Shown in pieces: positions 10,728-49,204 of a stretch of 64,000 bases of DNA. The position numbers and the translations under genes were made by a program. The stretch spans positions 11,309-75,308 of the forward strand of contig ASZN01000014.1 in assembly GCA_000406005.1 (NCBI GenBank), given 5' to 3'. Within the stretch, counting starts at the first letter, position 1. Each line of letters starts with the position of its first letter. Under the pieces are notes generated by a model, which was not told the origin of the DNA, searched no databases, and was given only the letters and a program-made list of their open reading frames with translations. This stretch comes from Candidatus Poribacteria bacterium WGA-3G (GTDB lineage: Bacteria; Poribacteria; WGA-4E; WGA-3G).

Positions 10728-11821
10728 CAAAGTTTACCTAATTCTGTGAGGATTTGCGCTGTTGGTACACGCGCAGCCTTGGTATTCAAAGATTTCCAAG
10801 CGATCGTTCCATCCTTGCGGACGATATAGGCGGCAGGACGTGCTATCCGATTGTTGCCAGGATCGACGACGTTGTAGACAGTGATCGCCTCTTTGTCGTT
10901 ATCCGCCAGGACTGGAAATTTGAGCCCATGGTTTTGAACCGTCTGTTTGGTGTCGCCTTCGTTATCGGAACTGATCGCAATGAGTTCCGCGCCTGCAGCT
11001 TGAATCTTCGCATAGTTCTGTTGCAACTCACCGAGTTGCGTTCTGCAGAAGGGTCACCAGCCGCCGCGGTAAAAAATAAGGACAACGTTTTTATCAGCGA
11101 TATAATCATCAAGGGCGTGCGCTTTACCGGTGCTGTCTGGTAAGACAAAGTCGGGGGCTTGGCTTTCAATACGCAAGCCTTGACCGGGAGGCAGCTCCTC
11201 CGCTTCTGGCACTGGTATGAGTTCGACCGTCAGTTCCAGCGTTTCATCCGCTGGTATCGGATCGACTGCTACCTCTTTGTCTTCGTAACCGGCGTGAGCG
11301 ATCATCAAAGCCATAGATTGCTGCACGGGGAGATTTTCAAAGGTGAAAACGCCTGCTGCTGTTGTTAACGTTTCGTAGATATTCCCTGTGTTATCCGTGA
11401 GTTGGAGACTGACACCGCCAAGCACTTCACCCGTCGTTTCGTTCGTTAAAACGCCGTATAAATGCGAGACTGGCGTTTTCAATGCGACGAGCGTTACCTT
11501 GTCAAGCGATACAACCTCTTCAGCGATGACTGTGACGGCTATCTCTTCCGTTTCATAGCCTTTCGCCGATATCTGGAGCGTATAGCTTCCAGCCTCAATC
11601 TCGCCAATTTCATAACTCGCCTGCGTCTCTATTTGCTTCACAAGTTGTCCATCTTTTAGTAAGCGTACCTGAATCCGTACGCCGTCAATTGATTGGACAT
11701 CGCCACGCAAAGTACCCGTTGTATCGGTTTCCACTGTCTCCTCAACCGGATTTTCAGTTTCACAGCCGAATCCTGCGAACAGTAGTAGCGCAAGCGCGAG
11801 GGGTGCCAGTATGTGTTTCAT
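10727..11821 (-). CDS. lipoprotein selenoprotein: CarboxypepD_reg-like repeats plus a peroxiredoxin-like (AhpC/TSA, Prx-like) domain with UxxC
   Basis: Track ORFs 11054..11821 and 10727..11026 are in the same frame, joined by TGA at 11054-11056. The read-through gives APDFVLPDSTGKAHALDDYIADKNVVLIFYRGGW-U-PFCRTQLGELQQNYAKIQAAGAELIAISSD, which is the FYRGxWCPxC redox motif with Sec at the first Cys. Lipobox FAGFG-C at the N-terminus. Confidence 0.75.
11016..11050 (-). promoter_or_regulatory. bacterial SECIS-like stem-loop
   Basis: The mRNA reads UGA CCC UUCUG cagaac GCAACUC GGU GAGUUGC aa CAGAA. It has a 7-bp upper stem, a GGU apical loop 22-24 nt after the UGA, and a 5-bp lower stem. Confidence 0.5.
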
Positions 11822-11831
11822 TGTTTTTCCT

Positions 11832-12638
11832 CTATCTGCCTATTTGCCGCTTGATTCTGCCCCACGTTGTTGTGAGTTTGTTAACGGGGTCAACGGCGGC
11901 GGCAGTTTCAACACCGGCATCCATGAGTGCATCCATATCCTCTTCACTCAGAGCGACATTGAAGAGGGCGACATCATCGATGATACCTTCAGTATAGCGG
12001 TCATAGTGCCGTCCGACGTGAAATACGCCGTCACTGGTGCCGTATCCATCTTTTGCGTTGAAATCGACTTCGGCTTCCATTTTGCCATCAACCCATATTG
12101 AGGCTTTGCCAGTATCTGCATCCGCTCGTCCGGCAATGAAGTGCCATTTCTCATCGGCGATAGGCGTAGTACCGTGCGCAGGAAAACTGGTTCCGGCACT
12201 ATCCCGTAAATAGAGGCTCACGGTGTTTTTGGAACCGTTGTCCCAAAGTAGATACCACGGCGTTGCCTGCGATGTATCCTCATAGTTTTTGCCGACGAGC
12301 GAACCACCAACCTTACTGCCTTTGAAATAGCAGGTGATCGTGAACGATACGCCCGCCTTAAACGCGACAGTGTTCGAGTGCGGAACTTCAACCCAATTGC
12401 TAACACCATCGAATTCAAGTGCTTTACCGAACTTGCCGTCAACCCACTTTGCACCATGGATTTCACCATCGTTCCCATTTCCTGATGCGTCTGCAGCGGC
12501 ACCACCGTTCCCTTCGTCAAAGAACCACATTCCGGTGATAGCCTCGGGATCAATTTTGGCGAGACTCGGGAGCGTTATCAGCAAAAAGATGCCCATCAGA
12601 GCCACAAAGCTGATGTGTACACTCTTAGGTAAATACAT
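11832..12638 (-). CDS. secreted LamG / concanavalin A-like lectin domain protein
   Basis: Signal peptide. Contains GNGNDGEIHGAKWVDGKFGKALEFDG ... ALFNVALSEEDM, typical of Laminin_G_3. The C-terminal tail reads VDPVNKLTTTWGRIKRQ. Confidence 0.8.
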   Translation of the reverse strand: MYLPKSVHISFVALMGIFLLITLPSLAKIDPEAITGMWFFDEGNGGAAADASGNGNDGEIHGAKWVDGKFGKALEFDGVSNWVEVPHSNTVAFKAGVSFTITCYFKGSKVGGSLVGKNYEDTSQATPWYLLWDNGSKNTVSLYLRDSAGTSFPAHGTTPIADEKWHFIAGRADADTGKASIWVDGKMEAEVDFNAKDGYGTSDGVFHVGRHYDRYTEGIIDDVALFNVALSEEDMDALMDAGVETAAAVDPVNKLTTTWGRIKRQIGR

Positions 12639-13057
12639 ACAATGTCTCCTTAAAAAATACAGAACAAAATCGTTTTTGCGTTACCACTTCAGTCTCAAAA
12701 CTGTCAACATCTCTTGCCCTATAGTATACCATCAATAATATGGTCATGTCAAATAGAAACGTGGCAGAAAAATACCTTGACATTCTCTAACATTCTGTGT
12801 AATTTGTTAACCACAAGGCTTATGCAGGCATCGGTTCGGTTGAATACAACATTAAAGAATTTGCTGTATCTTTAAAAAACTTTAGGATCCGATTTCACTT
12901 CACACCTTCCAAATATAAGTGAATCCAACACACCATAAAAATTAGAAAATATATAGTGCCGCATCGGGTTAAAGGTTACGAGCAATTAAACTCACCGTAA
13001 AACATCTGAATAGTCGGGATAGAAACACAACCCGCGACGTGATATGGGAAGTAACAG

Positions 13058-29668: not shown

Positions 29669-29780
29669 TTCCGTATCTCTTCTCTCCCACGTGTTGTGTA
29701 TCTGTACTTTTTTCCAGTGCCGAGGCAAAAAGGCTTGCACTATCACGGCATTCCACATATAATTTCCTTTATCAAATATT

Positions 29781-30236
29781 CCGCTACAAAACCCCCTTGC
29801 TTTAGCTGGGAGATGTCGTAGCGGTTAACGGTTTGTGTCCAGAAAAAAACTTGACAATAAATAACAAATAGTAATATGATATTCCTTGTATTCGGCATTG
29901 GTTGTGAGTTGATGCACTGGTATATTGCTTGATATTCAGACAACTACGTAAAAGCCTATACACCTGAGAAATATCTAAAATATGCTCGTCATGTGTTCGG
30001 GAAATCCAAGTCATGTTGTATCCCACGAGAATGTAAAGAGATTAAGAGTCTCTCAGAACACATCAAATGTTCATAAGGCACTTCGGTGCGGGGTCAGGGT
30101 AGTGTCCCTTGTGCTTAGGCATAGTAAGACTTTCGTTTTTGACATTCTCAAAACAAAAGCAATGTTGTTTGAAGCCACGAATGCTTCCGCTTAGCAAAAC
30201 TTTGCGGAAGTCCCCATGCTTTAGCTGGGGGTCTAT
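29781..30236 (+). repeat. noncoding element NCE-1 (candidate structured RNA or non-autonomous mobile element)
   Basis: 5' nested hairpin CCGCTAC..CCCCCTTGCTTTAGCTGGGAG..GTAGCGG. TTGACA (29851-56) with a -10 of TAATAT or TATGAT. A ~330-nt body homologous to 39936..40406, including the UUCG-capped stem at 30078-30089. 3' hairpin CCCCATGCTTTAGCTGGGG (30212-30230). Confidence 0.55.
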
Positions 30237-30282
30237 CACAGCGTCTTAGAAACCATTCCTCAACGGAATAAGAGGGAACAAT

Positions 30283-35191: not shown

Positions 35192-35888
35192 CTATTTGAG
35201 AATTACCATTTGGCGTGTGGTTCTGAATTGGCCTGCCTGAAATGTGTAGAAGTAGATACCACTCGCGACCGGTTCACCGACAGCGTTTCGACCATCCCAA
35301 TATGCGGCGCGAGATTGTATGCGATAGGTGCCAGCCGTCTGTAAACCGAGGGATAACTGCCGAATGGATTCACCTTTTAAGTTATAAATGTCAATGTTGA
35401 CATCCGCGTCTTCTGCTAAATCATAAGGTATCCACGTCTCAGGGTTGAAAGGATTCGGATAGTTCGGCAAAAGCACAGTTTCCGTCGGCAGAGTTGTGTC
35501 GATGAGGCGTTCTAAAGTAGCGATCCCTTGTCGAAAAACGTCAGAACCGTCGTCTGCGAACCGGGCTTCGGTCAGCCATTCATCGGCAAGCGTAGCGTGT
35601 TCGGCGCGAAGATGCGTTGACGCGGGCGGTGCTGCAGGATTGACAGATTCGCCGAAATGTGCGGCGACAAGGAGCAGATCAATGATGTCGACACGTCCGT
35701 CCTTGTTCACATCAACCTTCGGTGGTTCTGGGGACGCTACATCGAAGTTGTTTGCGACTAAAATCAGGTCTTGAATATCAACAGTCCCGTCGCTATCTAT
35801 ATCCCAAGGTAGCATTTGTGGAACAGGGATTTGTTCTTGCGTTTCAGGCAAAGCCTCTCGCCATCCAGCATGAAGTTGCTCGCTGAGG
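35192..35888. repeat. ~697-bp near-identical segment shared with 37283..37979
   Basis: The 3' ends of the two sulfatase genes align without indels at high identity, whereas the catalytic parts are much more diverged. Confidence 0.85.
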
Positions 35889-37270
35889 TGTGTGCCGAGT
35901 TCTGCGTTTTCCGGAAGATCCACGATATTAACGGTTTCATTTGGGTCAGTGCTGTAGTCATAGAGTTCTCGGCCAAGTTCTGCATTCTTTCCCCATTCGG
36001 TATATCGGTATTGTTCTGTTCGGATGGAGATACCACCATTTCGATTTCCACCGAACTCGCTAAAAGCAGCGGTTTTCCATGAACGCGCTGGTTGCTCAAT
36101 AACGGGCATCAGGCTTAAACCTTCTACCTTTGAAGGGACCGGGAGTTGGCAGGCATCACACAATGTAGGATAGATATCAACGAGTTCGCTGAGAACCTCG
36201 GTTCGGTTAGACTGTTGTCCCGGCACACTGATAATCAAAGGGGATCTGAGTGAAACCTCAAAAAGGGTTTGCTTTCCCCACATTCCGTGATCCCCAAGAT
36301 GGTAGCCGTGGTCTCCACAGAAAACGATAACCGTATTCTCCGTGAGTCCAAGTGAATCTAGCTGCGATAAAACTTGTCCGATTTGGGCATCCATATAGCT
36401 TGTGGCTGCGGCGTATGCTTTAATTAGATCCAGGGTTTTCGCGTCAGAAAGTGGCTCTGTTCCAGAAGGCAGATCTTGATAGGCTCTGATCGCGTTCCAA
36501 TTGTTGGTTGCTCTACTCGGAACATCCATAGGTGGCTCAGAAGAGGCAGGCAGGTTAAGGGTTTGGTCATCGTATAACTCAAAGTATTTCCTTGGTATCT
36601 TGTGAGGCAAATGAGGTTGGAAGAATCCGAGCGTTAAAAAAAATCGCTGGTCTTTGATCTGTTGCAATACTTCAACCGCCCGATTTGCGATTTTCCCATC
36701 CTCTAATTCATCGTCGGCAATATCTAAGATTTGCCATGAGGGTGTATCTGGTATACTATATGGAATGTAAATAGGTCTCCATGATGGAACACTCCATGAG
36801 TACGCATCATCTTGGAGACGCGGCAGCGTGAATACTCTACCGAGGGACTGTGTATGGTAACCGTGTGTTTTGAAATGTTGTGGTAGGGTTATTGCGTTTG
36901 GTACTGTTTGCCGCAAATCTGTTCTGTTATTTAGGATTTCCGTGGTCTCAGTTCTGAATCCAGTCATCATTGAAATTCGGGATGGACTACAGATCGGATA
37001 TTGACAGTATGCCCGGTTAAAGAGCGTGCCTCGATCAGCGATTCTATCAATATTGGGTGTGTGGATCTCCGGGTGACCATAACATCCAAGTAGAGGACGT
37101 AGATCGTCTCCAATGATAAACAACACGTTGTATTGCCCTTCTGCGTCGGCTTGGAGTTTAGGCAATAGCCCTGTCGTGAAAGCAGCTGCACCTACTTTGA
37201 AACTGGTTGAAAGAAAGTCTCGCCTGCTAAGTGCTTGTGACAACGCCTTCGATTGCTTTATCTGTTGCAT
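35192..37270 (-). CDS. Tat-exported formylglycine-dependent sulfatase with dockerin-like repeats and a T9SS-type C-terminal domain
   Basis: Tat signal SRRDFLSTSFKVGAAAF. CxPxR motif in YPICSPSRISMMTG. Dockerin-like segments DIDSDGTVDIQDLILV and DVNKDGRVDIIDLLLV. CTD sequence NYPNPFNPETWIPY...YFYTFQAG. Confidence 0.9.
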   Translation of the reverse strand: MQQIKQSKALSQALSRRDFLSTSFKVGAAAFTTGLLPKLQADAEGQYNVLFIIGDDLRPLLGCYGHPEIHTPNIDRIADRGTLFNRAYCQYPICSPSRISMMTGFRTETTEILNNRTDLRQTVPNAITLPQHFKTHGYHTQSLGRVFTLPRLQDDAYSWSVPSWRPIYIPYSIPDTPSWQILDIADDELEDGKIANRAVEVLQQIKDQRFFLTLGFFQPHLPHKIPRKYFELYDDQTLNLPASSEPPMDVPSRATNNWNAIRAYQDLPSGTEPLSDAKTLDLIKAYAAATSYMDAQIGQVLSQLDSLGLTENTVIVFCGDHGYHLGDHGMWGKQTLFEVSLRSPLIISVPGQQSNRTEVLSELVDIYPTLCDACQLPVPSKVEGLSLMPVIEQPARSWKTAAFSEFGGNRNGGISIRTEQYRYTEWGKNAELGRELYDYSTDPNETVNIVDLPENAELGTHLSEQLHAGWREALPETQEQIPVPQMLPWDIDSDGTVDIQDLILVANNFDVASPEPPKVDVNKDGRVDIIDLLLVAAHFGESVNPAAPPASTHLRAEHATLADEWLTEARFADDGSDVFRQGIATLERLIDTTLPTETVLLPNYPNPFNPETWIPYDLAEDADVNIDIYNLKGESIRQLSLGLQTAGTYRIQSRAAYWDGRNAVGEPVASGIYFYTFQAGQFRTTRQMVILK

Positions 37271-37282
37271 GATTCGATTTCC

Positions 37283-37979
37283 TTACTTTACAATTGCCAT
37301 TTGGCGTGTGATTCTGAATTGGCCTGCCTGAAACGTGTAAAAATAGATACCACTCGCAACGGGTTCACCGACAGCGTTTCGACCATCCCAATATGCGGCG
37401 CGAGATTGTATGCGATAGGTGCCAGCCGTCTGTAAACCGAGGGATAACTGCCGAATGGATTCACCTTTGAGATTATAAATGTGGATGTCGACATCCGCAT
37501 CTTCTGCTAAATCATAAGGTATCCACGTCTCTGGATTAAATGGATTCGGATAGTTGGGCAAAAGCACAGTTTCCGTCGGCAGAGTTGTGTTGGTGAGGCG
37601 TTCTAAAGTAGCGATCCCTTGTCGAAAGACATCAGAACCATCGTCTGCGAACCGGGCTTCGGTCAGCCATTCATCGGCAAGCGTAGCGTGTTCGGCGCGA
37701 AGATGCGTTGACACGGGCGGTGCTGCAGGATTGACAGATTCGCCGAAATGTGCGGCGACAAGGAGTAGATCAATGATGTCAACACGTCCATCCTTGTTCA
37801 CATCAACCTTCAGAGGTTTTGGGGACGCTACATCGAAGTTATTTGCGACTAAAATCAGGTCTTGGATATCGACAGTGCCGTTGTCATCTATATCCCAAGG
37901 TAACATTTGTGGAACCGAGATTTGTTCCTGCATCTCAGGCAAAGCCTCTCTCCATCCAGCGTGAAGTCGCTCGCTGAGG
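37283..37979. repeat. second copy of the sulfatase 3' repeat
   Basis: See 35192..35888; the offset is exactly 2091 bp. Confidence 0.85.
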
Positions 37980-39379
37980 TTTGATACAAGTTCCTCATTT
38001 TCTGGGATATCCACAATGTTAACGGTTTCATTAGGGTCAGCGTGATAATCGTAAAGTTCCCTGCCACGTTCGCCGTTTTGTCCCCACTCGGTGTATCGGT
38101 ATTGGGTTGTGCGCATGGAGTGCCCATCAATATTTGTACTTCTTTTAAGTTGACTAAACGCTGCTGTTTTCCATAGGCGTATAGGATCCTCAATCACGGG
38201 TAACATGCTAATTCCTTCCAACTCTGATGGAATAGATAATTGACAGATATCACACAGTGTCGGGTAGATATCGACCAATTCAACGAGTGCATCTGTTACG
38301 ACATCAGTATGGGTTTGTTGAGGGACACTGACTATCAGCGGTGAACGGACGGAATCTTCAAAAAGTGTGTTTTTTCTCCAGAGTCCATGTTCACCAAGAT
38401 GGAAGCCGTGGTCGCTCCAGAAAACGATGGCTGTATTTTCGGTGAGGTTTAGGGCATCTAACTGGTCTAAGACGCGACCGACCAAAGCATCAATATAACT
38501 CACATTTGCGGCGTATGCCAGCGTCAATTCTAAAGTTTTCTCGTCAGAAAACGGAGGATAATTTGAAATATCTTGATAAGCTTTCATCCCTTTAGGGTTA
38601 GAGGTTATGCTCGGTGCGTTTCTTGGGAGATTTGAATCAAGAGGTAATTTAAAGTCTTGTGTGGTGTATAAATCAAAGTATTTGCTTGGTGCATAGAAGG
38701 GTAGGTGTGGTTTGTTAAAACCGACTGCGAGGAAAAATTGTTTGTCTTTAATCTCGGTTAGGACTTCTATAGCTGCGTTCGCGATTCTACCATCTTCAAG
38801 TTCATCGTCATCAACATCAAGAGCCTGCCAAGATGGCGACTTTGTTTTATGAATGTATCGCCACGGCTCCCTCCAAATTGGCGCACTCCAAGAGAGTTCA
38901 TCCTTCCACGCAGCATCTCCGTGTGCGACTTTACCAACTGATCGGGTATGGTAACCGTAGTCTTTGAAATGTTGTGGCAGTGTCACAACTCCCGGGAGCA
39001 CCTCCCGAAAATCTGTAGGGTTATCCTGCACACCGGTTGTATCCGGGCGCAATCCAGTAAGTACTGAAGCGCGAGAAGGGTTGCAAACTGGAAATTGGCA
39101 ATCCGCACGGTTGAAGAGCGTACCACGTTCTGCGAGTTTGTCAATATTAGGTGAGTGTATTTCTGGATGGCCGTAGCACCCTAAAAGTGGTCGTAGGTCG
39201 TCTACAGCGATGAATAACACATTGTATGGACTATCCGCCTCCGCTCGGAGTTTAGGTAAAAGTCCGGTTGTAAAAGCGGCGGCTCCTGCCCTCAAACTCG
39301 TTGAAAGGAAATCTCTGCGGGTAAAATGCTGCTTTTGTGAGGCCTGTTCTTTTGTCTGTATATTTGATCCTTTAGGCAT
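37283..39379 (-). CDS. Tat-exported sulfatase paralogue with dockerin-like repeats and a T9SS-type CTD
   Basis: Tat signal TRRDFLSTSLRAGAAAF. CxPxR motif in FPVCNPSRASVLTG. The C-terminal ~230 aa are the same as in 35192..37270. Confidence 0.9.
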   Translation of the reverse strand: MPKGSNIQTKEQASQKQHFTRRDFLSTSLRAGAAAFTTGLLPKLRAEADSPYNVLFIAVDDLRPLLGCYGHPEIHSPNIDKLAERGTLFNRADCQFPVCNPSRASVLTGLRPDTTGVQDNPTDFREVLPGVVTLPQHFKDYGYHTRSVGKVAHGDAAWKDELSWSAPIWREPWRYIHKTKSPSWQALDVDDDELEDGRIANAAIEVLTEIKDKQFFLAVGFNKPHLPFYAPSKYFDLYTTQDFKLPLDSNLPRNAPSITSNPKGMKAYQDISNYPPFSDEKTLELTLAYAANVSYIDALVGRVLDQLDALNLTENTAIVFWSDHGFHLGEHGLWRKNTLFEDSVRSPLIVSVPQQTHTDVVTDALVELVDIYPTLCDICQLSIPSELEGISMLPVIEDPIRLWKTAAFSQLKRSTNIDGHSMRTTQYRYTEWGQNGERGRELYDYHADPNETVNIVDIPENEELVSNLSERLHAGWREALPEMQEQISVPQMLPWDIDDNGTVDIQDLILVANNFDVASPKPLKVDVNKDGRVDIIDLLLVAAHFGESVNPAAPPVSTHLRAEHATLADEWLTEARFADDGSDVFRQGIATLERLTNTTLPTETVLLPNYPNPFNPETWIPYDLAEDADVDIHIYNLKGESIRQLSLGLQTAGTYRIQSRAAYWDGRNAVGEPVASGIYFYTFQAGQFRITRQMAIVK

Positions 39380-39393
39380 AATGTAAGCGACTC

Positions 39394-39927
39394 CTACGGA
39401 AATATTACGACTATTTCTCTGTCCGTTACAGACGCTCGGAATAGCGTAAGGAGTTCTGCCTCACTCTTTTCTGGGAATTCAAAAGACAGGCGGAGATACT
39501 CAAGGATTAGTTCGTCAAAAGAACGGATGTACGTAAAGTAAAACGTTCCAAGTGTGTCGTCTTGCAATTTTTCAACAAAGGCATTTTCAAGGTTCTCAAG
39601 TCCTTCCAGCCTTTCAGTATTTTCAAGGTTCTCTTGGCGGTATATATCCACTAAATCGACCCAAAGTCCCTTTCTAAGACCGAGTTCCTCTTTAAAGATT
39701 TCCTCAGAAGCAGTGAACAAAGTAGAAAAATCGCCTGTTTCTTCGGCTGTTTGCTGTATTTCTGTTCGTCGTTCGTTGACTTTTTTCATCGCCGCTTGCG
39801 CTTTTTCTAAAGGATTCTGTGACGGCATGATCATTTCTGTGATTGGTTGCCGCATCGCTGAATCACATCCGATCAGCGACATGAATGCACAAAGTATCAA
39901 CACAGTCGGTCGTATCCGTAATTTCAT
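39394..39927 (-). CDS. lipoprotein, hypothetical
   Basis: MKLRIRPTVLILCAFMSLIG-C lipobox. The start is probably ATG 39927; the upstream extension runs into the NCE-2 hairpin. Confidence 0.5.
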   Translation of the reverse strand: MKLRIRPTVLILCAFMSLIGCDSAMRQPITEMIMPSQNPLEKAQAAMKKVNERRTEIQQTAEETGDFSTLFTASEEIFKEELGLRKGLWVDLVDIYRQENLENTERLEGLENLENAFVEKLQDDTLGTFYFTYIRSFDELILEYLRLSFEFPEKSEAELLTLFRASVTDREIVVIFP

Positions 39928-39935
39928 CAATCTTC

Positions 39936-40406
39936 GGGCAGGAGACCCCATCCTTTAGGTTGGGGAGGAATGCCCGCTCCTTTTTTTCTTGACAAAAAGT
40001 GTCAAGAGTATTAGTATATCCGTGTAGGACAGAAGGTTGTGAATTACGCGTACCTGACGCTATTGCTGAGTGGATTCACGTAAAACTACGACACTTTGAC
40101 GCTAAACAACCAGGATATAATCTTTGAGTGTAATAGACGCGTGACGTAACAATCCGGTCTCAAACAACGCACTCTCAAAAATACATAGTCAACTTCGGTT
40201 GAGAGGGCTGCTTGTGATCCCTCTGTGGAGCGACAGTAAGACGGTTGTTCAGTTTTCAGTTTCCAGTTACGAGTTACCAGTTAAAGAAACGATCTGATTA
40301 ATCATAGTCTCTTAACTGGTTACTGGTTACTGGTTACTGTTAACTATATCTGAGAAAACCGCAGCCGTTATGAAGCACAAGCCCCTGCCTTTAGGCAGTG
40401 GGTGCC
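39936..40406 (+). repeat. noncoding element NCE-2, homologue of 29781..30236
   Basis: 5' nested hairpin GGGCA..CCCCATCCTTTAGGTTGGGG..TGCCC plus a T-run. TTGACA (39989-94), 17-nt spacer, TAGTAT (40012-17). UUCG-capped stem at 40189-40202. An internal heptamer inverted repeat at 40247-40345. 3' hairpin GCAC..CCCCTGCCTTTAGGCAGTGGG..GTGC. Confidence 0.55.
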
Positions 40407-40411
40407 TTGAC

Positions 40412-41413
40412 TTAACTATTATACCTTAATTTTTCCATCATTTCATCGAAAAGAGGGGCAATTTTCGGGTGAAGATCAAACGGTTTTCTGGCGGGTACTG
40501 GATGCAAGGTCTGTCGAGCGTACTCGCGAAACGTGTTATCTGCTGGTAGTTCACAGAAGCTGCATAATGCGTCGAGCGTCTTGTCTGTCTCTCTGGTTAA
40601 GTCCTCAAAACGGACGAGATGGATACAGTCGGGTAACGCTTGCAGTAAATGGAGTCCTTCCTGCATGGTGACGGTCCATTCTATGGCTGCCCTGTCAAGA
40701 TGTCGCTCAAAACCTTTAGTTTCATCAGCGATTTCGGCAAAAGCCGGGTCTGTTTCAACAAGTTGTTCGGCTATGAGTTTCCACTTCCGGTCATTGACTC
40801 CCCACCAGTCATGTTTTTCCCCATTAACTTGAATGCCAAGTCGCTGTGACCAATTCGCAATGGAATGGCACGTATCCCAACCGTTCCGTGCGAGAAATAT
40901 AAAACGGGCATCAGGGAATAAAGCCCGCACGAAACCGACCCTGAAGATAAGTTCCGGGTACTTATCAACGATACGTTTTGAACCGGTCACTGTCAAATAG
41001 GCACCGAACATTTGAGTAGCGCGTTGCCGCATGTCGCCTGTTGCGTCCTCGGCGGCGAGACGATATTTTGCGTCGCCTCGACTGTAGTTTCCGATGATGT
41101 CTTCATGTGGGTGGATGACGTGCCATATCGCTTTCGGTTCGTTGAGGTAGCCGACTTCTCTATGCATGGATAGTACGATACCGAGTATTGTGGTTCCACT
41201 ACGTCCTGTACCTAAAATAAAGATCGGTTTCTCTATTGACTTGTATCTGTTTTTAGTCGTCGAGGCTGTCTTGAGGATAGAGAAGACGAGTGGATTTATC
41301 CAGCGACCTTTGGTCGTTACAGGTCGCCCTTCAAAGAGTGCATAGCTAATAAAGCGAGGTAATACTTTCATCGGGCGCGTTTTGATGTAGTTCGGATTAA
41401 TTTGTGCAATCAT
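40412..41413 (-). CDS. sulfotransferase
   Basis: 5'-PSB loop FILGTGRSGTTILG and a 3'-PB-like FLARNGWDTCHS. Confidence 0.8.
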   Translation of the reverse strand: MIAQINPNYIKTRPMKVLPRFISYALFEGRPVTTKGRWINPLVFSILKTASTTKNRYKSIEKPIFILGTGRSGTTILGIVLSMHREVGYLNEPKAIWHVIHPHEDIIGNYSRGDAKYRLAAEDATGDMRQRATQMFGAYLTVTGSKRIVDKYPELIFRVGFVRALFPDARFIFLARNGWDTCHSIANWSQRLGIQVNGEKHDWWGVNDRKWKLIAEQLVETDPAFAEIADETKGFERHLDRAAIEWTVTMQEGLHLLQALPDCIHLVRFEDLTRETDKTLDALCSFCELPADNTFREYARQTLHPVPARKPFDLHPKIAPLFDEMMEKLRYNS

Positions 41414-41571
41414 TTTTTAAACTTTCCTTGCGGTTCGGTTAGGCAAATTTGAAATTTGACGTGCTTCTCCGTAGATCCGCTCTCCATTTCATTTTTTAAA
41501 CTTTCCTTGCGGTTCGGTTAGGCAAATTTGAAATTTGACGTGCTTCTCCGTAGATCCGCTCTCCATTTCAT
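41411..41571. repeat. exact tandem duplication (2 x 79 bp plus 3) of the start-codon and leader region
   Basis: 41411-41489 equals 41490-41568. Each unit holds the leader cassette and an ATG. The two upstream units encode an identical 17-codon uORF, MKWRADLRRSTSNFKFA. Confidence 0.9.
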
Positions 41572-41593
41572 TACGAGCTATGTCTCCGAGGTG

Positions 41594-42622
41594 CTAATTA
41601 GAATCAAAGATGTTAAAAATTCGTCTTTTTAGGGTTTCACGGATATTTTTCATCCGGTCAAGATTAAGGAAAAATGCGCCACCTAATTTCACTGGAAAAC
41701 TTAATAGGTGAAGCATCAAACGCGCGATATTAGGTTGGACTGAAACAGGACTATAGTTATGTTTCTTCATGAATGCTGCGGTTATCGTCTGATTGAGGTA
41801 AATTTCAGCGGAACTGAGTTCTCGGCGATTTGTGTCGCTGCGCCAACTGTGCGCTCGCTGTGGATTGATGCCGAGTTGTTGGGGTCGATCCTCACCGACA
41901 GAAGAGCCGACTTGCGGGACTTGGAGCATCTCATCAGTGTAAGTAATACCGACAAAGTCACAGAGGGATTTGACGGTTTTTTCGGGATAGGTGAGTAGTT
42001 CTTCAAAGTATATAGAGATGACCCGTTCGTGTTGTAGAAACCGATCTGCAGCGTTGACAGCAGTTCGCCAGATGTGACTGATGGTTATCGGATGATAGTT
42101 CATCCAATCACGAAGCGTCTCTTTCATCGGCATATCGCTTCCACCGAGGAACCGACGTTTCCACCTCCGCTTTTGGGATAATAATACGTCGCGTGGGTCT
42201 CGAATCATGTTAATAATCCGTGCTTCAGGGTAAAGTTCAAGGATGTCTGCGATGTAAAAGACATTACGTGGTGTCTGGTCACACGGAATAGTTCTACCGT
42301 TTTCAGCAGCCTCACAGCGGAGAAAGGTTTCAAAGAGTGCCACTGGTGTATCTGGATAGACGCTTAAACCTGAAAGAAACGCTTGTGTCTCGCTTAGGAA
42401 GCGGCGCGCGTTTCCGTACGTGCGATAGCCCTCGCGTTGTACACAAAATAATTGTGACGCAAGTTTTTCTATCTCTTTTTTATCTATTTTTGATGAAAAA
42501 GGCGGCGCACATAGCTGACCGAAGAAATGGAGTTCGCCAAAAGTGTAAACATTTGGGTGTTTTCCGAATATGCGTCCCATCATCGTCGTTCCGCTGCGAC
42601 TGTTGCCTACAATAAATATCAT
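41594..42622 (-). CDS. sulfotransferase
   Basis: Contains IFIVGNSRSGTTMMG and IINMIRDPRDVLLSQ. Confidence 0.85.
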   Translation of the reverse strand: MIFIVGNSRSGTTMMGRIFGKHPNVYTFGELHFFGQLCAPPFSSKIDKKEIEKLASQLFCVQREGYRTYGNARRFLSETQAFLSGLSVYPDTPVALFETFLRCEAAENGRTIPCDQTPRNVFYIADILELYPEARIINMIRDPRDVLLSQKRRWKRRFLGGSDMPMKETLRDWMNYHPITISHIWRTAVNAADRFLQHERVISIYFEELLTYPEKTVKSLCDFVGITYTDEMLQVPQVGSSVGEDRPQQLGINPQRAHSWRSDTNRRELSSAEIYLNQTITAAFMKKHNYSPVSVQPNIARLMLHLLSFPVKLGGAFFLNLDRMKNIRETLKRRIFNIFDSN

Positions 42623-47809: not shown

Positions 47810-47890
47810 AATAGTTTTCAGTTATCAGTGGTCAGTTTTCAGTTAAAGAGGCGTGTTGTAGGGACAGTCTCCTATTCGCCGACAATTCTT

Positions 47891-49204
47891 CTAAAACCAA
47901 GAGACCCGCGTCCTTCGGAGGAGGTACGTCAGGTTTCCGACAGCAAGGAGTGCGGTAACGGATACGGACAGTGCGACACCGAGGATCCACCATGTTTTGA
48001 TTAATCCGTACGCAATAAGAAAATTAAGCAGTGCCATTGCTATCATATTTACGAAAATAGGCCGGTACGCCTTTTGTGCGTAAAGTCCTGCATTTAGCAC
48101 AGGGATGAGACAAGAGAATAGCATACCAGCACTGAGCCAGAAGAGGAGTTGTCCTATCAGTTCCACTACGGTATCATCACGTTCAGCCCGTCCGTATATG
48201 AACCCACTAATTTTTTCGTAAAATATCAGCATGAACAAGGTTGCCAAGAACCCGATGATTATAGCGGCGCGTGCATTTCGGTTGAGTGTCTGTTCCAATT
48301 GTCGTTTATCGTTTACTGCGTTGTTGGCTGCCATATCGGGCAAGCCTGTTGTCGCGATACTTGTACCGATGAGTGTCTGTAACGCGGAGAAGATCCGGAA
48401 GGCAGCGTCATAGAGTGCAATAATTCCTTCTCCAAGTTTTGAGACGAGATATATTTCAACCAACAAGCGGTTCGTAATTTGTCGGATGGCGAAGCCGAGT
48501 GTCGGTAAGGTCACACTGTTTTTCAAAGCATGTAGTGTATCGAGAGAGATGCCTGTAACCTCATACCGGTGTCCAGTCTGGTACGCTCCGATACATAACC
48601 AAGTAAAATATGCGATAAAGCCGCCGGTATAAGCCATCGCGACATAGTTTTCAAGGTTTTGTGTATCCCATAGGAGTAAAAAGACGACTCCGGCGATCCC
48701 GGCAGGTAACGCGTTTCGGAGGGCAACGGTTTTAAAACGCTGTAGACTGTTCAGGAAGGCTCCGAGTACCGTGCTACCGCATCCGAATATGATGAGTGGT
48801 GCGAAGCGTCGTAACAGTCCTGTTACCCTCTGAGGATTGATAGTTGGTTTCCCTAACAATCCAGCGGTTATCCATGGTGCGAGAAGTTCAATGAGAGCAA
48901 AGATCGCAAAACCGACACCGATTAAAAAAAAGAGGAGTCCATTTGTGAAACGTCTGTATTCTGTGTGAGTCAATTCCTTTTTGCGTGTAACAAAGAGTGG
49001 TACAAGACTAAATTTAGCACCTTCTCGGACAATCGTATCAACGACTAATACAATTTTCAATGCGGTTATAATCTCATCAGCGATGCCGCTGAAACCGAAT
49101 CGCGTTGGGATCAAAATAGAACGAACGAGGAGGCTCAACCCCATCCCAGCGAAGGTAATGATCATTACCCAAAAGGTTTTGTGCTGTAGGAGTTTTTTGA
49201 GCAT
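47891..49204 (-). CDS. MOP-superfamily polysaccharide flippase (Wzx/MurJ-like)
   Basis: About 12-14 TM segments. The start is uncertain: ATG 49204, or TTG 49231 as in the track. Confidence 0.65.
   Translation of the reverse strand: MLKKLLQHKTFWVMIITFAGMGLSLLVRSILIPTRFGFSGIADEIITALKIVLVVDTIVREGAKFSLVPLFVTRKKELTHTEYRRFTNGLLFFLIGVGFAIFALIELLAPWITAGLLGKPTINPQRVTGLLRRFAPLIIFGCGSTVLGAFLNSLQRFKTVALRNALPAGIAGVVFLLLWDTQNLENYVAMAYTGGFIAYFTWLCIGAYQTGHRYEVTGISLDTLHALKNSVTLPTLGFAIRQITNRLLVEIYLVSKLGEGIIALYDAAFRIFSALQTLIGTSIATTGLPDMAANNAVNDKRQLEQTLNRNARAAIIIGFLATLFMLIFYEKISGFIYGRAERDDTVVELIGQLLFWLSAGMLFSCLIPVLNAGLYAQKAYRPIFVNMIAMALLNFLIAYGLIKTWWILGVALSVSVTALLAVGNLTYLLRRTRVSWF

What the first reader, a model, noticed from the sequence alone, without database searches (positions are those of the whole stretch)
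29781..30236. Two homologous ~460-bp promoter-bearing noncoding elements with compensatory stem changes (candidate novel structured RNA)
Seen: 29781..30236 and 39936..40406, both on the plus strand, share the same layout. Each has a nested hairpin with a CCCC..TTTAG..GGGG core, then a TTGACA/-10 promoter 30-45 nt later, then a ~330-380-nt body, then a second hairpin of the same type. The bodies align along their length, for example GGTTGTGA(G/A)TT, TATTGCT, ACGTAAAA, GTCTC..CAAA, CTTCGGT and AGTAAGAC. A UUCG-capped stem is GCAC-UUCG-GUGC in copy 1 (30078-89) but UCAAC-UUCG-GUUGA in copy 2 (40189-202). The next stem is AGGG/CCCT in copy 1 versus GAGGG/CCCTC in copy 2. So pairing is kept while the sequence changes. 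No ORF is conserved between the copies. I see no match to the signature boxes of RNase P RNA, tmRNA, SRP RNA or 6S RNA. Inference: this is a family of independently transcribed structured RNAs of unknown function.
Basis: partly seen in the sequence, partly recalled or inferred. Interest (0 to 1): 0.7.

Follow-up and report, generated by a model that had tools for sequence, protein, structure and literature searches.

The report
Gene-less transposon copies carrying guide RNA
The two look-alike 470-base noncoding elements are protein-less copies of an IS200/IS605-type jumping gene in a sponge-symbiont (Poribacteria) genome. They keep the transposon's two end hairpins, its promoter and the guide-RNA (omega RNA) scaffold used by the TnpB nuclease, so this is a known kind of element and not a new class of RNA.

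Summary
Two homologous elements (refined to 29773-30239 and 39928-40411, + strand) share the same layout: nested hairpin, sigma-70-like promoter, structured body, second hairpin.

They are not host sRNA genes. Both are insertions. About 50 Poribacteria genomes conserve the flanking genes but lack the elements.

TnpB-encoding IS elements in loci L081, L175 and L011 carry the same left-end hairpin and promoter, and the same right-end hairpin. Their region downstream of or overlapping the tnpB 3' end aligns with the 3' half of both window copies. Metagenome loci with the same left-end hairpin encode the Y1 transposase TnpA.

The elements are therefore palindrome-associated transposable elements (PATEs) of the IS200/IS605 family. 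They retain an omega-RNA-like scaffold that abuts the right end.

The compensatory stem changes hold qualitatively. They fit an omega-RNA fold shared with TnpB-linked relatives.

The inferred mechanism has two parts. TnpA supplied in trans moves the element. The element's own promoter makes a guide RNA that TnpB supplied in trans could use to cut empty sites. Expression and TnpB use are not shown.

One part is unexplained: a 130-160-nt 5' RNA domain with no counterpart in the TnpB-bearing relatives.

Verdict: a new member of a known kind, of moderate-to-low interest.

The parts
29768..29772 (+). TTTAT, the transposon-adjacent motif (TAM-like target site) just 5' of copy 1. It belongs to the flank and not to the element.
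   Evidence: The 5-mer before the left-end (LE) start is TTTAT, CTTAT or TTTAC in more than 15 independent c1-type insertions, and TTCAT for c2-type LEs.
29773..29824 (+). Copy 1 left end (LE): CAAATATT, then a nested imperfect hairpin. The outer stem is CCGCTAC/GTAGCGG, the internal loops are AAAA/ATGTC, and the inner hairpin is CCCCCTTGC-TTTA-GCTGGGAG.
   Evidence: In an LE alignment of 15 elements, 82% of cells are paired against 64% in shuffles (0/500). All 7 outer-stem pairs show two-sided changes. The same LE precedes tnpB in L081, L175 and L011.
29851..29880 (+). Element-borne sigma-70-like promoter, TTGACA-18-TATGAT.
   Evidence: Matches 11 of 12 consensus positions. A TTGAC(A/T) box plus an A/T-rich -10-like hexamer sits at the same distance from the LE in both PATE and TnpB-bearing relatives (L011 has the weaker TTGATA). 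In the TnpB-bearing relatives it lies upstream of tnpB.
29886..30047 (+). Copy 1 5' RNA domain of unknown origin (contains GGTTGTGAGTT, TATTGCT, ACGTAAAA).
   Evidence: No similarity to the interior of TnpB-bearing relatives and no coding remnant. Only weakly similar to c2 and L050m.
30048..30239 (+). Copy 1 omega-RNA-like scaffold and right end (RE). It contains the UUCG-capped stem (30078-30089), the core ...TGTGCTTAGGCATAGTAAGAC (AGTAAGAC at 30123-30130), a variable hairpin, the RE hairpin CCCCATGCTTTAGCTGGGGG (30212-30231) and the terminal motif TCTATCAC (30232-30239).
   Evidence: Homologous to L081 3475-3638, which spans the 3' end of tnpB and the RE (nhmmer E=5e-10; 66% identity overall and 80% over the last 60 nt). 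The consensus fold is shared with L081. Four other elements end in the same TATCAC.
30240..30255 (+). Predicted guide segment (AGCGTCTTAGAAACCA). This is flanking DNA that would be transcribed 3' of the scaffold, and it lies in the 5' UTR of the SDR gene.
   Evidence: Inference from the known omega-RNA architecture: the scaffold ends at the RE boundary and about 16 nt of guide comes from the flank (text read). No terminator-like site lies between the promoter and this point.
39923..39927 (+). TTCAT, the TAM-like site 5' of copy 2. It overlaps the start codon (minus strand) of the 185-aa gene.
   Evidence: All c2-type LEs (c2, L096m, L143m, L007, L027p) are preceded by TTCAT.
39928..39987 (+). 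Copy 2 left end: CAATCTT, then a nested hairpin (outer stem CGGGCA/TGCCCG, loops GGAGA/AGGAA, inner hairpin CCCCATCC-TTTA-GGTTGGGG), then CTCCTTTTTTT.
   Evidence: 94% identical to the LE of L096m. Related LEs occur in L143m, L027p and as a solo LE in L007.
39989..40017 (+). Element-borne promoter, TTGACA-17-TAGTAT.
   Evidence: Matches 10 of 12 consensus positions. Its position is conserved in the LE alignment.
40024..40156 (+). Copy 2 5' RNA domain of unknown origin.
   Evidence: Strongly similar to L050m (score 51 against 19 +/- 3 for shuffles, 0/1000). No similarity to tnpB-bearing relatives.
40157..40411 (+). Copy 2 omega-RNA-like scaffold and right end. It contains the UUCG stem (40189-40202), the core CTCTGTGGAGCGACAGTAAGAC (AGTAAGAC at 40235-40242), a roughly 96-nt palindromic extension of the variable stem (40251-40346), the RE hairpin CCCCTGCCTTTAGGCAGTGGG (40382-40402) and the terminal TGCCTTGAC (40403-40411).
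   Evidence: Matches the L175 region downstream of tnpB plus the RE (blastn 83% over 69 nt; nhmmer E=2.5e-7) and L011 2411-2633. A consensus fold of c2 with L175, L015m and L011 has 9 pairs with two-sided changes.
40412..40427 (+). Predicted guide segment (TTAACTATTATACCTT), antisense to the 3' end of the sulfotransferase gene.
   Evidence: Inference, as for copy 1. The sulfotransferase ORF is 40412-41413 on the minus strand.

Best explanation
Copies 1 and 2 are non-autonomous, protein-less derivatives of a TnpB-type IS200/IS605-family insertion sequence in a Candidatus Poribacteria genome. Such elements are called PATEs (palindrome-associated transposable elements).

Shown:
- Each copy consists of a left end with a nested imperfect hairpin, the element's own sigma-70-like promoter, a noncoding body, and a right end with a second hairpin on the same strand plus a short terminal motif.
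- Both copies are insertions relative to related genomes.
- Their ends and 3' halves are homologous to those of TnpB-encoding elements.

Inferred from established IS200/IS605 and TnpB biology:
- A Y1 transposase (TnpA) encoded elsewhere recognises the two hairpins on single-stranded DNA. It excises the element and reinserts it 3' of a TTTAT or TTCAT site without target duplication.
- The promoter, which in full-length relatives lies upstream of tnpB, here would drive only the noncoding body. The resulting transcript's 3' portion would be an omega-RNA scaffold ending at the right-end boundary, followed by about 16 nt of flanking sequence acting as a guide.
- TnpB made by a full-length element could load this RNA. 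It could then cut the empty site (TAM plus guide match) after excision or in a sister chromosome, so that repair restores the element.

Side effects on the host are likely. Copy 1 sits in the 5' UTR of an SDR gene in the sense orientation. Copy 2 replaced the native promoter and RBS region of a 185-aa gene.
For: - Insertion status of copy 1. The TonB-SDR gene pair is conserved in about 50 Poribacteria loci. The intergenic spacer is 165-337 nt in close relatives and 614 nt in the window. Conserved flanks sit on either side of the 29773-30239 segment.
- Insertion status of copy 2. Relatives L017, L044, L020, L047 and L049 have about 75 nt of native sequence where the window has copy 2. L007 has a solo left end at the same position.
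- TnpB-bearing relatives. L011 1105-2640, L081 2149-3638 and L175 2453-997 have the same left-end hairpin and promoter and the same right-end hairpin. Between them lie 372-403-aa ORFs that hit Pfam OrfB_IS605 and Cas12f1-like_TNB. The L175 ORF matches solved chains named 'RNA-guided DNA endonuclease TnpB' (8EXA, 8H1J) at E=2e-34.
- Homology of the 3' halves. c1 matches L081 at E=5e-10 and c2 matches L175 at E=2.5e-7. A profile built from c1, c2 and L050m hits L081, L175 and L112 at 5e-7 to 3e-6.
- Parallel PATE and autonomous pair. The PATEs L112a and L112b carry the scaffold of the neighbouring tnpB element L112c almost unchanged from ACGCTTGTGGAG to the right end.
- Y1 transposase association. 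L116 and L179 have the same inner left-end hairpin directly followed by Y1_Tnp genes (E=1e-40). L120 also has tnpA. At least 18 of the 120 loci retrieved by the hairpin pattern alone encode TnpB.
- Structure. The left-end hairpin shows covariation. Folds are shared between PATE and TnpB-linked scaffolds.
- Target and terminal motifs. A conserved TAM-like 5-mer precedes the left end and conserved motifs end the right end.
- Literature. PATEs that 'often encode omega RNAs' needing TnpB in trans are described by Meers et al. (bioRxiv 10.1101/2023.03.14.532601).
Against: - There are no expression data. Transcription, RNA ends and TnpB binding are untested.
- No tnpB or tnpA lies in the window or in the 61 Poribacteria loci, apart from the L011 tnpB. 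A cognate TnpB or TnpA in this genome is therefore not shown.
- No Rfam family matches, even for the TnpB-linked relatives. 'Omega RNA' here rests on position and homology and not on a curated model.
- The 5' 130-160 nt of the body has no counterpart in the TnpB-bearing relatives.
- Covariation in the body rests on only 3-4 distinct sequences.
- Copy 2's scaffold carries a roughly 96-nt palindromic extension that might disrupt it.
- Both insertions are accompanied by loss of native DNA next to the right end (17 nt and about 75 nt). Clean peel-and-paste insertion does not predict this.
Confidence: 0.85

Rival explanations
1. These are inert relics. The elements are internally deleted IS copies whose RNA has no function. 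The conserved motifs reflect recent common descent of the copies and not selection.
For: No expression data exist. c1 and c2 are only weakly similar in the 5' half. c2 carries a large palindromic insertion in the scaffold. Degenerate derivatives exist: a solo left end in L007 and a copy without the left-end hairpin in L030. No tnpB was found nearby.
Against: Elements with the same architecture keep the promoter, the scaffold core and both ends across lineages whose TonB proteins are only about 40% identical (L050 against the window). Stems differ in sequence but keep pairing. No coding remnant of tnpB remains. This argues for propagation as a noncoding unit and against recent random decay.
Confidence: 0.2
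2. This is a host-encoded family of independently transcribed structured sRNAs of unknown function, bounded by terminator-like hairpins.
For: Promoter-like sites are present. Stems show compensatory changes. There is no Rfam match.
Against: Both loci are insertions that are absent from orthologous sites. The bounding hairpins are the ends of TnpB- and TnpA-encoding IS elements. The hairpins are not terminator-like. The 3' half is homologous to the 3' region of tnpB elements.
Confidence: 0.03
3. These are domesticated guide RNAs. A nuclease-dead TnpB relative (TldR-like) or TnpB itself would use them to regulate the adjacent genes. The SDR gene would be targeted by copy 1, and the sulfotransferase or the 185-aa gene by copy 2.
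For: The predicted guides fall in the SDR 5' UTR and at the 3' end of the sulfotransferase gene. The copy 2 insertion appears old, because L007 shares the left end at the same site. TldR systems are documented (text read).
Against: A guide that matches its own flank is simply what every IS605-family insertion has. No TnpB- or TldR-like ORF is in the window. Copy 1 is absent from all close relatives except near-identical strains, which is the pattern of a recent mobile insertion.
Confidence: 0.04
4. These are REP/BIME-type repeats mobilised by a RAYT (REP-associated tyrosine transposase), or ordinary intergenic promoter and terminator signals of the neighbouring genes.
For: The hairpins are short GC-rich imperfect palindromes in intergenic DNA. 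Y1-type proteins that look RAYT-like by their motifs (not checked against Pfam) occur in two loci retrieved by the hairpin pattern (L126, L151).
Against: Only four hairpins occur in 64 kb and about eight in 1.1 Mb of Poribacteria DNA, always as element ends. That is not the high copy number of REPs. The paired hairpins are direct and about 420-440 nt apart, enclosing a conserved body, so they are not inverted REP doublets. The native SDR promoter lies upstream of the insertion and is conserved without it.
Confidence: 0.02

Closest known systems
PATEs (palindrome-associated transposable elements) derived from IS200/IS605-family elements, for example those related to ISGst1 and ISGst5 in Geobacillus stearothermophilus (Meers et al., bioRxiv 10.1101/2023.03.14.532601, read; the term comes from work on haloarchaea, from my own knowledge)
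   Same: There is no protein-coding gene. The left and right ends are shared with tnpB-bearing elements. Both hairpins lie on the same strand. The elements retain the right-end-proximal omega-RNA region and depend on TnpA and TnpB supplied in trans.
   Different: The host phylum is new (Poribacteria, sponge symbionts). The elements are fairly long (467 and 484 bp). They have a strong consensus promoter directly after the left end, and an extra 130-160-nt 5' RNA domain that is not found in the TnpB-bearing relatives examined. The omega-RNA clade has no Rfam model.
TnpB omega RNA (reRNA) of IS200/IS605 elements such as ISDra2 (Karvelis et al. 2021 and Altae-Tran et al. 2021, from my own knowledge; architecture as summarised in the text read)
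   Same: The scaffold lies at the 3' end of the element, spans the right-end hairpin and ends at the transposon boundary, so the flank would supply the guide. In TnpB-bearing relatives it overlaps or follows the 3' end of tnpB (the RuvC-III DRDxNAA codons correspond to AACGC..TCAA..CATA in c1 and c2). It has a variable-length stem after a conserved core.
   Different: Here the RNA would be transcribed from its own promoter without tnpB. Sequence similarity to the ISDra2 omega RNA was not tested because no sequence was at hand. No curated family matches.
MITEs of TIR-type insertion sequences
   Same: They are short, noncoding, mobilised in trans and polymorphic between strains. They insert in intergenic regions, and other MITEs occupy the same TonB-SDR spacer in relatives.
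   Different: There are no terminal inverted repeats and no target-site duplication. The two end hairpins are in direct orientation, and insertion occurs next to a fixed 5-mer.
REP/REPIN elements and their RAYT transposases
   Same: They use a Y1 (HUH) transposase superfamily and are recognised through an imperfect hairpin.
   Different: REPs are 20-40-nt units in hundreds of copies, often as inverted doublets. Here there are low-copy elements of about 470 bp with a conserved RNA-like body and a promoter.

Membership tests
IS200/IS605-family transposable element (non-autonomous, PATE) | No terminal inverted repeats; subterminal imperfect palindromic hairpins at both ends on the same strand | tested here: met
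   All four hairpins are on the + strand. The left-end hairpin shows covariation in 15 elements. Right-end hairpins followed by a conserved 8-9-nt terminal motif occur in 13 elements.
IS200/IS605-family transposable element (non-autonomous, PATE) | Insertion 3' of a conserved tetra- or pentanucleotide, without target-site duplication | tested here: met
   TTTAT, CTTAT or TTTAC precedes c1-type left ends and TTCAT precedes c2-type left ends, in more than 20 insertions. The flanks of c1 (CCTTTAT | AGCGTC) and c2 (TTTCAT | TTAACT) show no duplication. Caveat: native DNA next to the right end is missing at both sites.
IS200/IS605-family transposable element (non-autonomous, PATE) | Ends shared with elements that encode the Y1 transposase TnpA and/or TnpB | tested here: met
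   TnpB (Pfam OrfB_IS605 plus Cas12f1-like_TNB) lies between the same ends in L011, L081 and L175. Y1_Tnp follows the same inner left-end hairpin in L116 and L179. No TnpA was found in a Poribacteria locus.
IS200/IS605-family transposable element (non-autonomous, PATE) | Mobility: presence/absence polymorphism at orthologous sites | tested here: met
   Copy 1 is absent from all orthologous TonB-SDR spacers examined. Copy 2 is absent from L017, L044, L020, L047 and L049. Family members lie at other sites and in other orientations in L015, L050 and L011.
IS200/IS605-family transposable element (non-autonomous, PATE) | No protein-coding gene inside the element | tested here: met
   No ORF is shared by the two copies. 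blastx against three TnpBs gives nothing below E=0.3.
TnpB omega RNA (reRNA) | Scaffold at the 3' end of the element, spanning the right end and ending at the transposon boundary, and homologous to the region at or after the tnpB 3' end in autonomous relatives | tested here: met
   c1 30092-30241 aligns with L081 3475-3638 and c2's 3' end with the L175 and L011 3' regions.
TnpB omega RNA (reRNA) | Conserved secondary structure supported by covariation | tested here: inconclusive
   RNAalifold finds shared helices with 9 two-sided changes in c2/L175/L015m/L011 and 9 in c1/c2/L050m. Only 3-4 sequences were available per set, and for two long stem insertions were trimmed by hand. No significance test is possible.
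TnpB omega RNA (reRNA) | Transcribed, processed and bound by TnpB, and guiding cleavage of TAM-adjacent targets | not testable with these tools
   No RNA-seq or biochemistry is available. A promoter-like site is present and no terminator precedes the right end.
TnpB omega RNA (reRNA) | Match to a curated RNA family model | tested here: not met
   There is no Rfam 15 hit for the window or for the TnpB-bearing relatives L011, L081, L175 and L112. Because the TnpB-linked relatives also fail, this reflects missing models and is not evidence against the assignment.
Known housekeeping or large ncRNAs (RNase P, tmRNA, SRP, 6S, OLE, GOLLD, HEARO, group I/II introns) | Covariance-model match | tested here: not met
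   There are no hits at gathering thresholds. At E<=10 only snoRNA- and miRNA-type noise appears.

The most novel reading that the evidence does not exclude
These PATEs may be guide-RNA-only selfish elements that have evolved as independent transcription units. They have a consensus promoter and an added, conserved 5' RNA domain (shared by c2 and L050m across deep Poribacteria lineages) that is absent from TnpB-linked omega RNAs. That domain could give the RNA a new property, such as stabilisation, competition for TnpB loading, or a host-directed regulatory role. In that case they would be hyperparasites of TnpB with their own RNA innovation, and not mere deletion derivatives.
Probability: 0.15. 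Interest if true: 0.55.

Novelty: new member of a known kind. Interest (0 to 1): 0.3.

Why it matters
The result removes a candidate novel structured RNA and replaces it with a specific, testable identity. It adds Poribacteria, which are uncultured sponge symbionts, to the lineages where protein-less IS200/IS605 derivatives keep a promoter-driven omega-RNA scaffold. This supports the view that guide RNAs can spread independently of their nuclease. The loci also give matched sets for testing trans use of guides: a PATE (c1), a TnpB-bearing relative with about 75%-identical ends (L081), and empty sites in related genomes. They also expose an omega-RNA clade and a tnpB 5' leader that have no Rfam model. 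For genome annotation, they show that one intergenic spacer (TonB-SDR) is a recurrent landing site, and that such insertions can displace native promoters, as at the copy 2 site.

Tried and rejected
- A strict 3'-motif scan of GTDB genomes (CATA-N4-ACTTCGGT-N36-AGTAAGAC) found nothing, not even the source genome.
- Look-ups of exact proteins gave only contigs of the same species at 99.9% identity, which are useless for comparison.
- Single-sequence folding gave only modest z-scores of -1.7 and -2.4.
- Rfam at relaxed thresholds gave only noise. The RT-8 and HgcC partial hits at E=0.4-3 were rejected.
- I tested whether the body is a decayed tnpB ORF. blastx found nothing significant, and nucleotide comparison of the 5' half with the interiors of L081, L175 and L011 was at shuffle level.
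- Integron attC sites, CRISPR-like repeats, REP elements and intrinsic terminators were considered for the hairpins. They were rejected on copy number, orientation, spacing and the lack of U-tracts.
- I did not build a covariance model. With only 3-4 distinct sequences per subtype it would add little beyond the nhmmer results.
- I ran no further search on TnpB, because L011 already shows a TnpB element of this family in a Poribacteria genome.
Full report
**What is in the sequence.**
The motif CCCnnnCTTTAGnnnGGG occurs four times in the 64-kb window. All four are on the + strand, at 29794, 30213, 39947 and 40383, which is exactly at the two ends of the two elements. Chance would give 0.14 occurrences. 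Each element has a promoter-like site 30-45 nt after the first hairpin. These are TTGACA-18-TATGAT at 29851-29880 (11 of 12 consensus positions) and TTGACA-17-TAGTAT at 39989-40017 (10 of 12). No terminator-like site was found in either region.

Each copy is the other's best non-self match in the window (nhmmer E=0.002 against the window, 9e-6 pairwise). Without hairpins and promoter, the bodies still align far better than 1000 dinucleotide shuffles (45 against 21.9 +/- 3.3). That signal lies in the 3' half. In the 5' half, c1 against c2 is not significant on its own. No ORF is shared. Rfam 15 has no match at gathering thresholds and only noise at E<=10.

**Where the window comes from.**
Homologues of the TonB-like protein next to copy 1 are named Candidatus Poribacteria. 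An alignment of these proteins retrieved 61 loci, nearly all from Poribacteria genomes. Contigs from ENA, Logan and a further metagenome (MKWU01) hold the same locus at 99.8-99.9% identity.

**Both copies are insertions.**
The TonB-SDR gene pair that brackets copy 1 is conserved in about 50 Poribacteria loci. In close relatives the spacer is 165-337 nt, against 614 nt in the window. The relatives keep the SDR promoter (TTGCAC-17-TATAAT) and the downstream leader (...AGCGTCTTAGAAACC...RBS) but lack the segment in between.

The same spacer holds unrelated TIR-type MITEs in L005-L009. It holds members of the present family, in the opposite orientation, in L015 and L050.

For copy 2, five relatives (L017, L044, L020, L047, L049) have about 75 nt of native sequence between the start codon of the 185-aa gene and the stop codon of the sulfotransferase gene. 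This sequence apparently contains that gene's promoter and RBS. The window has copy 2 in its place. L007 has only a copy-2-type left end at that position.

**What the elements are related to.**
Searches with the copies found a full-length third member, L050m (L050 11480-11040, minus strand). It matches c2 at E=3e-12 and c1 at E=2e-7 and so links the two.

They also found three elements in which the same ends enclose a gene.
- L011 1105-2640 has a left end (CCCCGTCAAAACCCCATGCTTCAGCTTGGAAGATGTAGACGGG), a promoter-like site and a 376-aa ORF. After the ORF come ...GGTGGAGCAACAGTAAGACGC..., a right-end hairpin (CCCCTACCTTTAGGTAGTGGG) and TATCAC.
- L081 and L175 came from a metagenome scan with the left-end hairpin as pattern. 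They have the same layout, with 403-aa and 372-aa ORFs.

All three ORFs hit Pfam OrfB_IS605 and Cas12f1-like_TNB. The L175 protein matches solved chains named 'RNA-guided DNA endonuclease TnpB' (8EXA, 8H1J; ISDra2 by my own knowledge) at E=2e-34 over nearly its full length. All three keep the RuvC motifs (GxDxG, E in ETLNL/EDLNL, DRDxNAA), read directly from the translations.

L081's ends resemble copy 1's: 75% identity over the left end plus promoter, 80% over the last 60 nt, and an identical terminal GGGGGTCTATCAC.

Among the 120 loci retrieved by the 20-nt hairpin pattern alone, at least 18 encode TnpB. L116, L179 and L120 encode a Y1 transposase. In L116 and L179 the hairpin AAAACCCAATGCTTTAGCTTTGGGATGAA is followed directly by a gene that hits Pfam Y1_Tnp at about E=1e-40, and then by tnpB. 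The hairpins are therefore the subterminal palindromes of an IS200/IS605-family element.

**Refined anatomy.**
Aligning more than 20 left ends shows three features: a 5-mer in the flank, a conserved start (CAA(A)TMTT) and a nested hairpin. The 5-mer is TTTAT, CTTAT or TTTAC for c1-type left ends and TTCAT for c2-type left ends.

The outer stem of the hairpin covaries. In 15 sequences, 82% of cells pair against 64% in shuffles (0 of 500 shuffles reach this). The covariation score is 0.41 against 0.16. All seven outer-stem pairs show changes on both sides, and the named structure beats every slid register.

Right ends consist of the hairpin plus 8-9 nt ending in TATCAC, TGTCA(A), CTGAC or TTGAC.

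This sets copy 1 at 29773-30239 and copy 2 at 39928-40411. There are no flanking duplications. The promoter-like boxes sit at the same distance from the left end in protein-less and TnpB-bearing elements alike (L011's -35 box is the weaker TTGATA). It is therefore the element's own promoter. In full-length relatives it lies upstream of tnpB.

**The body.**
The 3' half of both copies is homologous to the region that overlaps or follows the tnpB 3' end in the full-length relatives.
- c1 30092-30241 aligns with L081 3475-3638 (E=5e-10).
- c2's 3' end aligns with L175 (E=2.5e-7; 83% over 69 nt) and with L011 2411-2633.
- A profile of c1, c2 and L050m hits L081, L175 and L112 at 5e-7 to 3e-6.

A core, YTGTGGAG-N5-RTAAGAC, is shared. 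It is followed by a stem of variable length and then the right-end hairpin. The stretch AACGC..TCAA..CATA in c1, c2 and L050m lines up with the tnpB codons for (D)xNAA(I/L)N(I/L) in L175 and L081. This is my reading of the sequences.

An independent example comes from another metagenome contig. The protein-less elements L112a and L112b carry the scaffold of the neighbouring tnpB element L112c almost unchanged from ACGCTTGTGGAG to the right end.

By position, this is where TnpB omega RNA scaffolds lie: they span the right end and stop at the transposon boundary, with a guide of about 16 nt supplied by the flank (text read).

RNAalifold finds shared helices with two-sided changes.
- c2, L175, L015m and L011 share helices in which 9 pairs show two-sided changes. 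For this run I replaced the long stem insertions of c2 and L011 with short loops.
- c1, c2 and L050m also share helices in which 9 pairs show two-sided changes.

With so few sequences this is qualitative support only.

**What remains unexplained.**
- The 5' 130-160 nt of the bodies (29886-30047 and 40024-40156) shows no similarity to the 5' UTR or coding region of the three TnpB-bearing relatives and no coding remnant. Yet c2 and L050m share it strongly.
- Both window insertions are accompanied by loss of native DNA beside the right end (17 nt and about 75 nt). Short repeats (TAACT, CTCCTTT) suggest later deletions, but this is conjecture.
- Copy 2's variable stem carries a 96-nt palindrome (40251-40346). 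Relatives of it occur in L081 and L033.

**Mechanism.**
The element architecture, the insertion status and the homology to TnpB-bearing elements are shown. The rest is inferred from established IS200/IS605 biology.
- TnpA from elsewhere excises the element and reinserts it on single-stranded DNA next to TTTAT or TTCAT.
- The internal promoter yields an RNA whose 3' part is an omega-RNA scaffold plus a flank-derived guide.
- TnpB supplied in trans could use this RNA to cut empty sites and so favour retention.

[quoted passage not shown] The kind is therefore known.

Neither tnpB nor tnpA was found in the window or in the 61 Poribacteria loci, except the tnpB in L011. Expression could not be tested.

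**Verdict.**
It is wrong in kind, because they are transposon-borne guide-RNA scaffolds bounded by transposon ends and not a new host RNA family. This is a new member of a known kind. Interest is modest. It is raised slightly by the unexplained 5' RNA domain and by the absence of any curated model for this omega-RNA clade.

Noticed in passing
L005-L009, about 10900-11100 (orthologues of window 29669-30282); L015 10915-11392; L050 11040-11487: The TonB-SDR intergenic spacer is a recurrent landing site. Close relatives carry unrelated small elements with terminal inverted repeats (AGGACTTACG...CGTAAGTCCT). L015 and L050 carry members of the c1/c2 family in the opposite orientation.
   Followed up: partly
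window 40251-40346; L081 2036-2134; L033 7327-7434; weak similarity at window 47812-47912: A long palindrome built of CAGTTAC-type heptamers sits inside copy 2's variable stem. Its loop is AAAGAAACGATCTGATTAATCATAGTCTCT. It recurs outside the element family, for example just upstream of the L081 left end. It may be a separate small palindromic repeat nested in copy 2.
   Followed up: partly
window 39923-39990 and 40403-40430; L007 19033-19111: Copy 2 replaced about 75 nt that in relatives apparently hold the promoter and RBS of the 185-aa gene. Its TAM overlaps that gene's start codon. L007 retains only a solo left end at the same site. This suggests an old insertion followed by different deletions in the two lineages.
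   Followed up: partly
window 29768-29773 and 30239-30245, against L007, L010 and L029: Seventeen nucleotides of native spacer (TGAACATATATAGGCAT in L007 once its MITE insert is removed; the equivalent 17 nt in L010 and L029 differ in sequence) are missing at the copy 1 site. The relatives have a second TAM-like site (GTCAT or GGCAT) directly before AGCGTC. The order of events is unclear.
   Followed up: no
L096 1318-880 (minus), L143 14803-14380 (minus), L027 about 12270-12680: A second protein-less element type has copy-2-type left ends and a TTCAT target site. Its body is entirely different, it has no TTGACA promoter, and its right end terminates in CACTGAC.
   Followed up: no
L030 9563-9900 (minus strand): A copy-1-like derivative keeps the promoter (TTGACA-17-TATAAT), an omega-like 3' region and the right end (TCTGTCAC), but has lost the left-end hairpin. 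It would be immobile yet could still be transcribed.
   Followed up: no
L081 2262-2383; L175 2330-2247 (minus); L015 and L051 elements: The tnpB 5' leaders share a structured motif (GGCAGAC..GTTACC..GGTAAC..GTCTGCC..CCCACT..GGGGTTAAA) with matching architecture in two protein-less copies. It has no Rfam match. It may be a regulatory leader of tnpB.
   Followed up: no
L065-L184 (metagenome loci): The 20-nt left-end hairpin sequence is found nearly unchanged in contigs from soil, brine, sludge and freshwater metagenomes, often next to tnpA or tnpB. This hairpin type is therefore widespread well beyond Poribacteria.
   Followed up: partly
window 35192-39379: Two tandem paralogous genes encode about 695-aa sulfatases with dockerin and FlgD-Ig-like domains. 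Sulfotransferase genes lie next to them at 40412-42622. This fits the sulfated-polysaccharide metabolism reported for Poribacteria (from my own knowledge).
   Followed up: no
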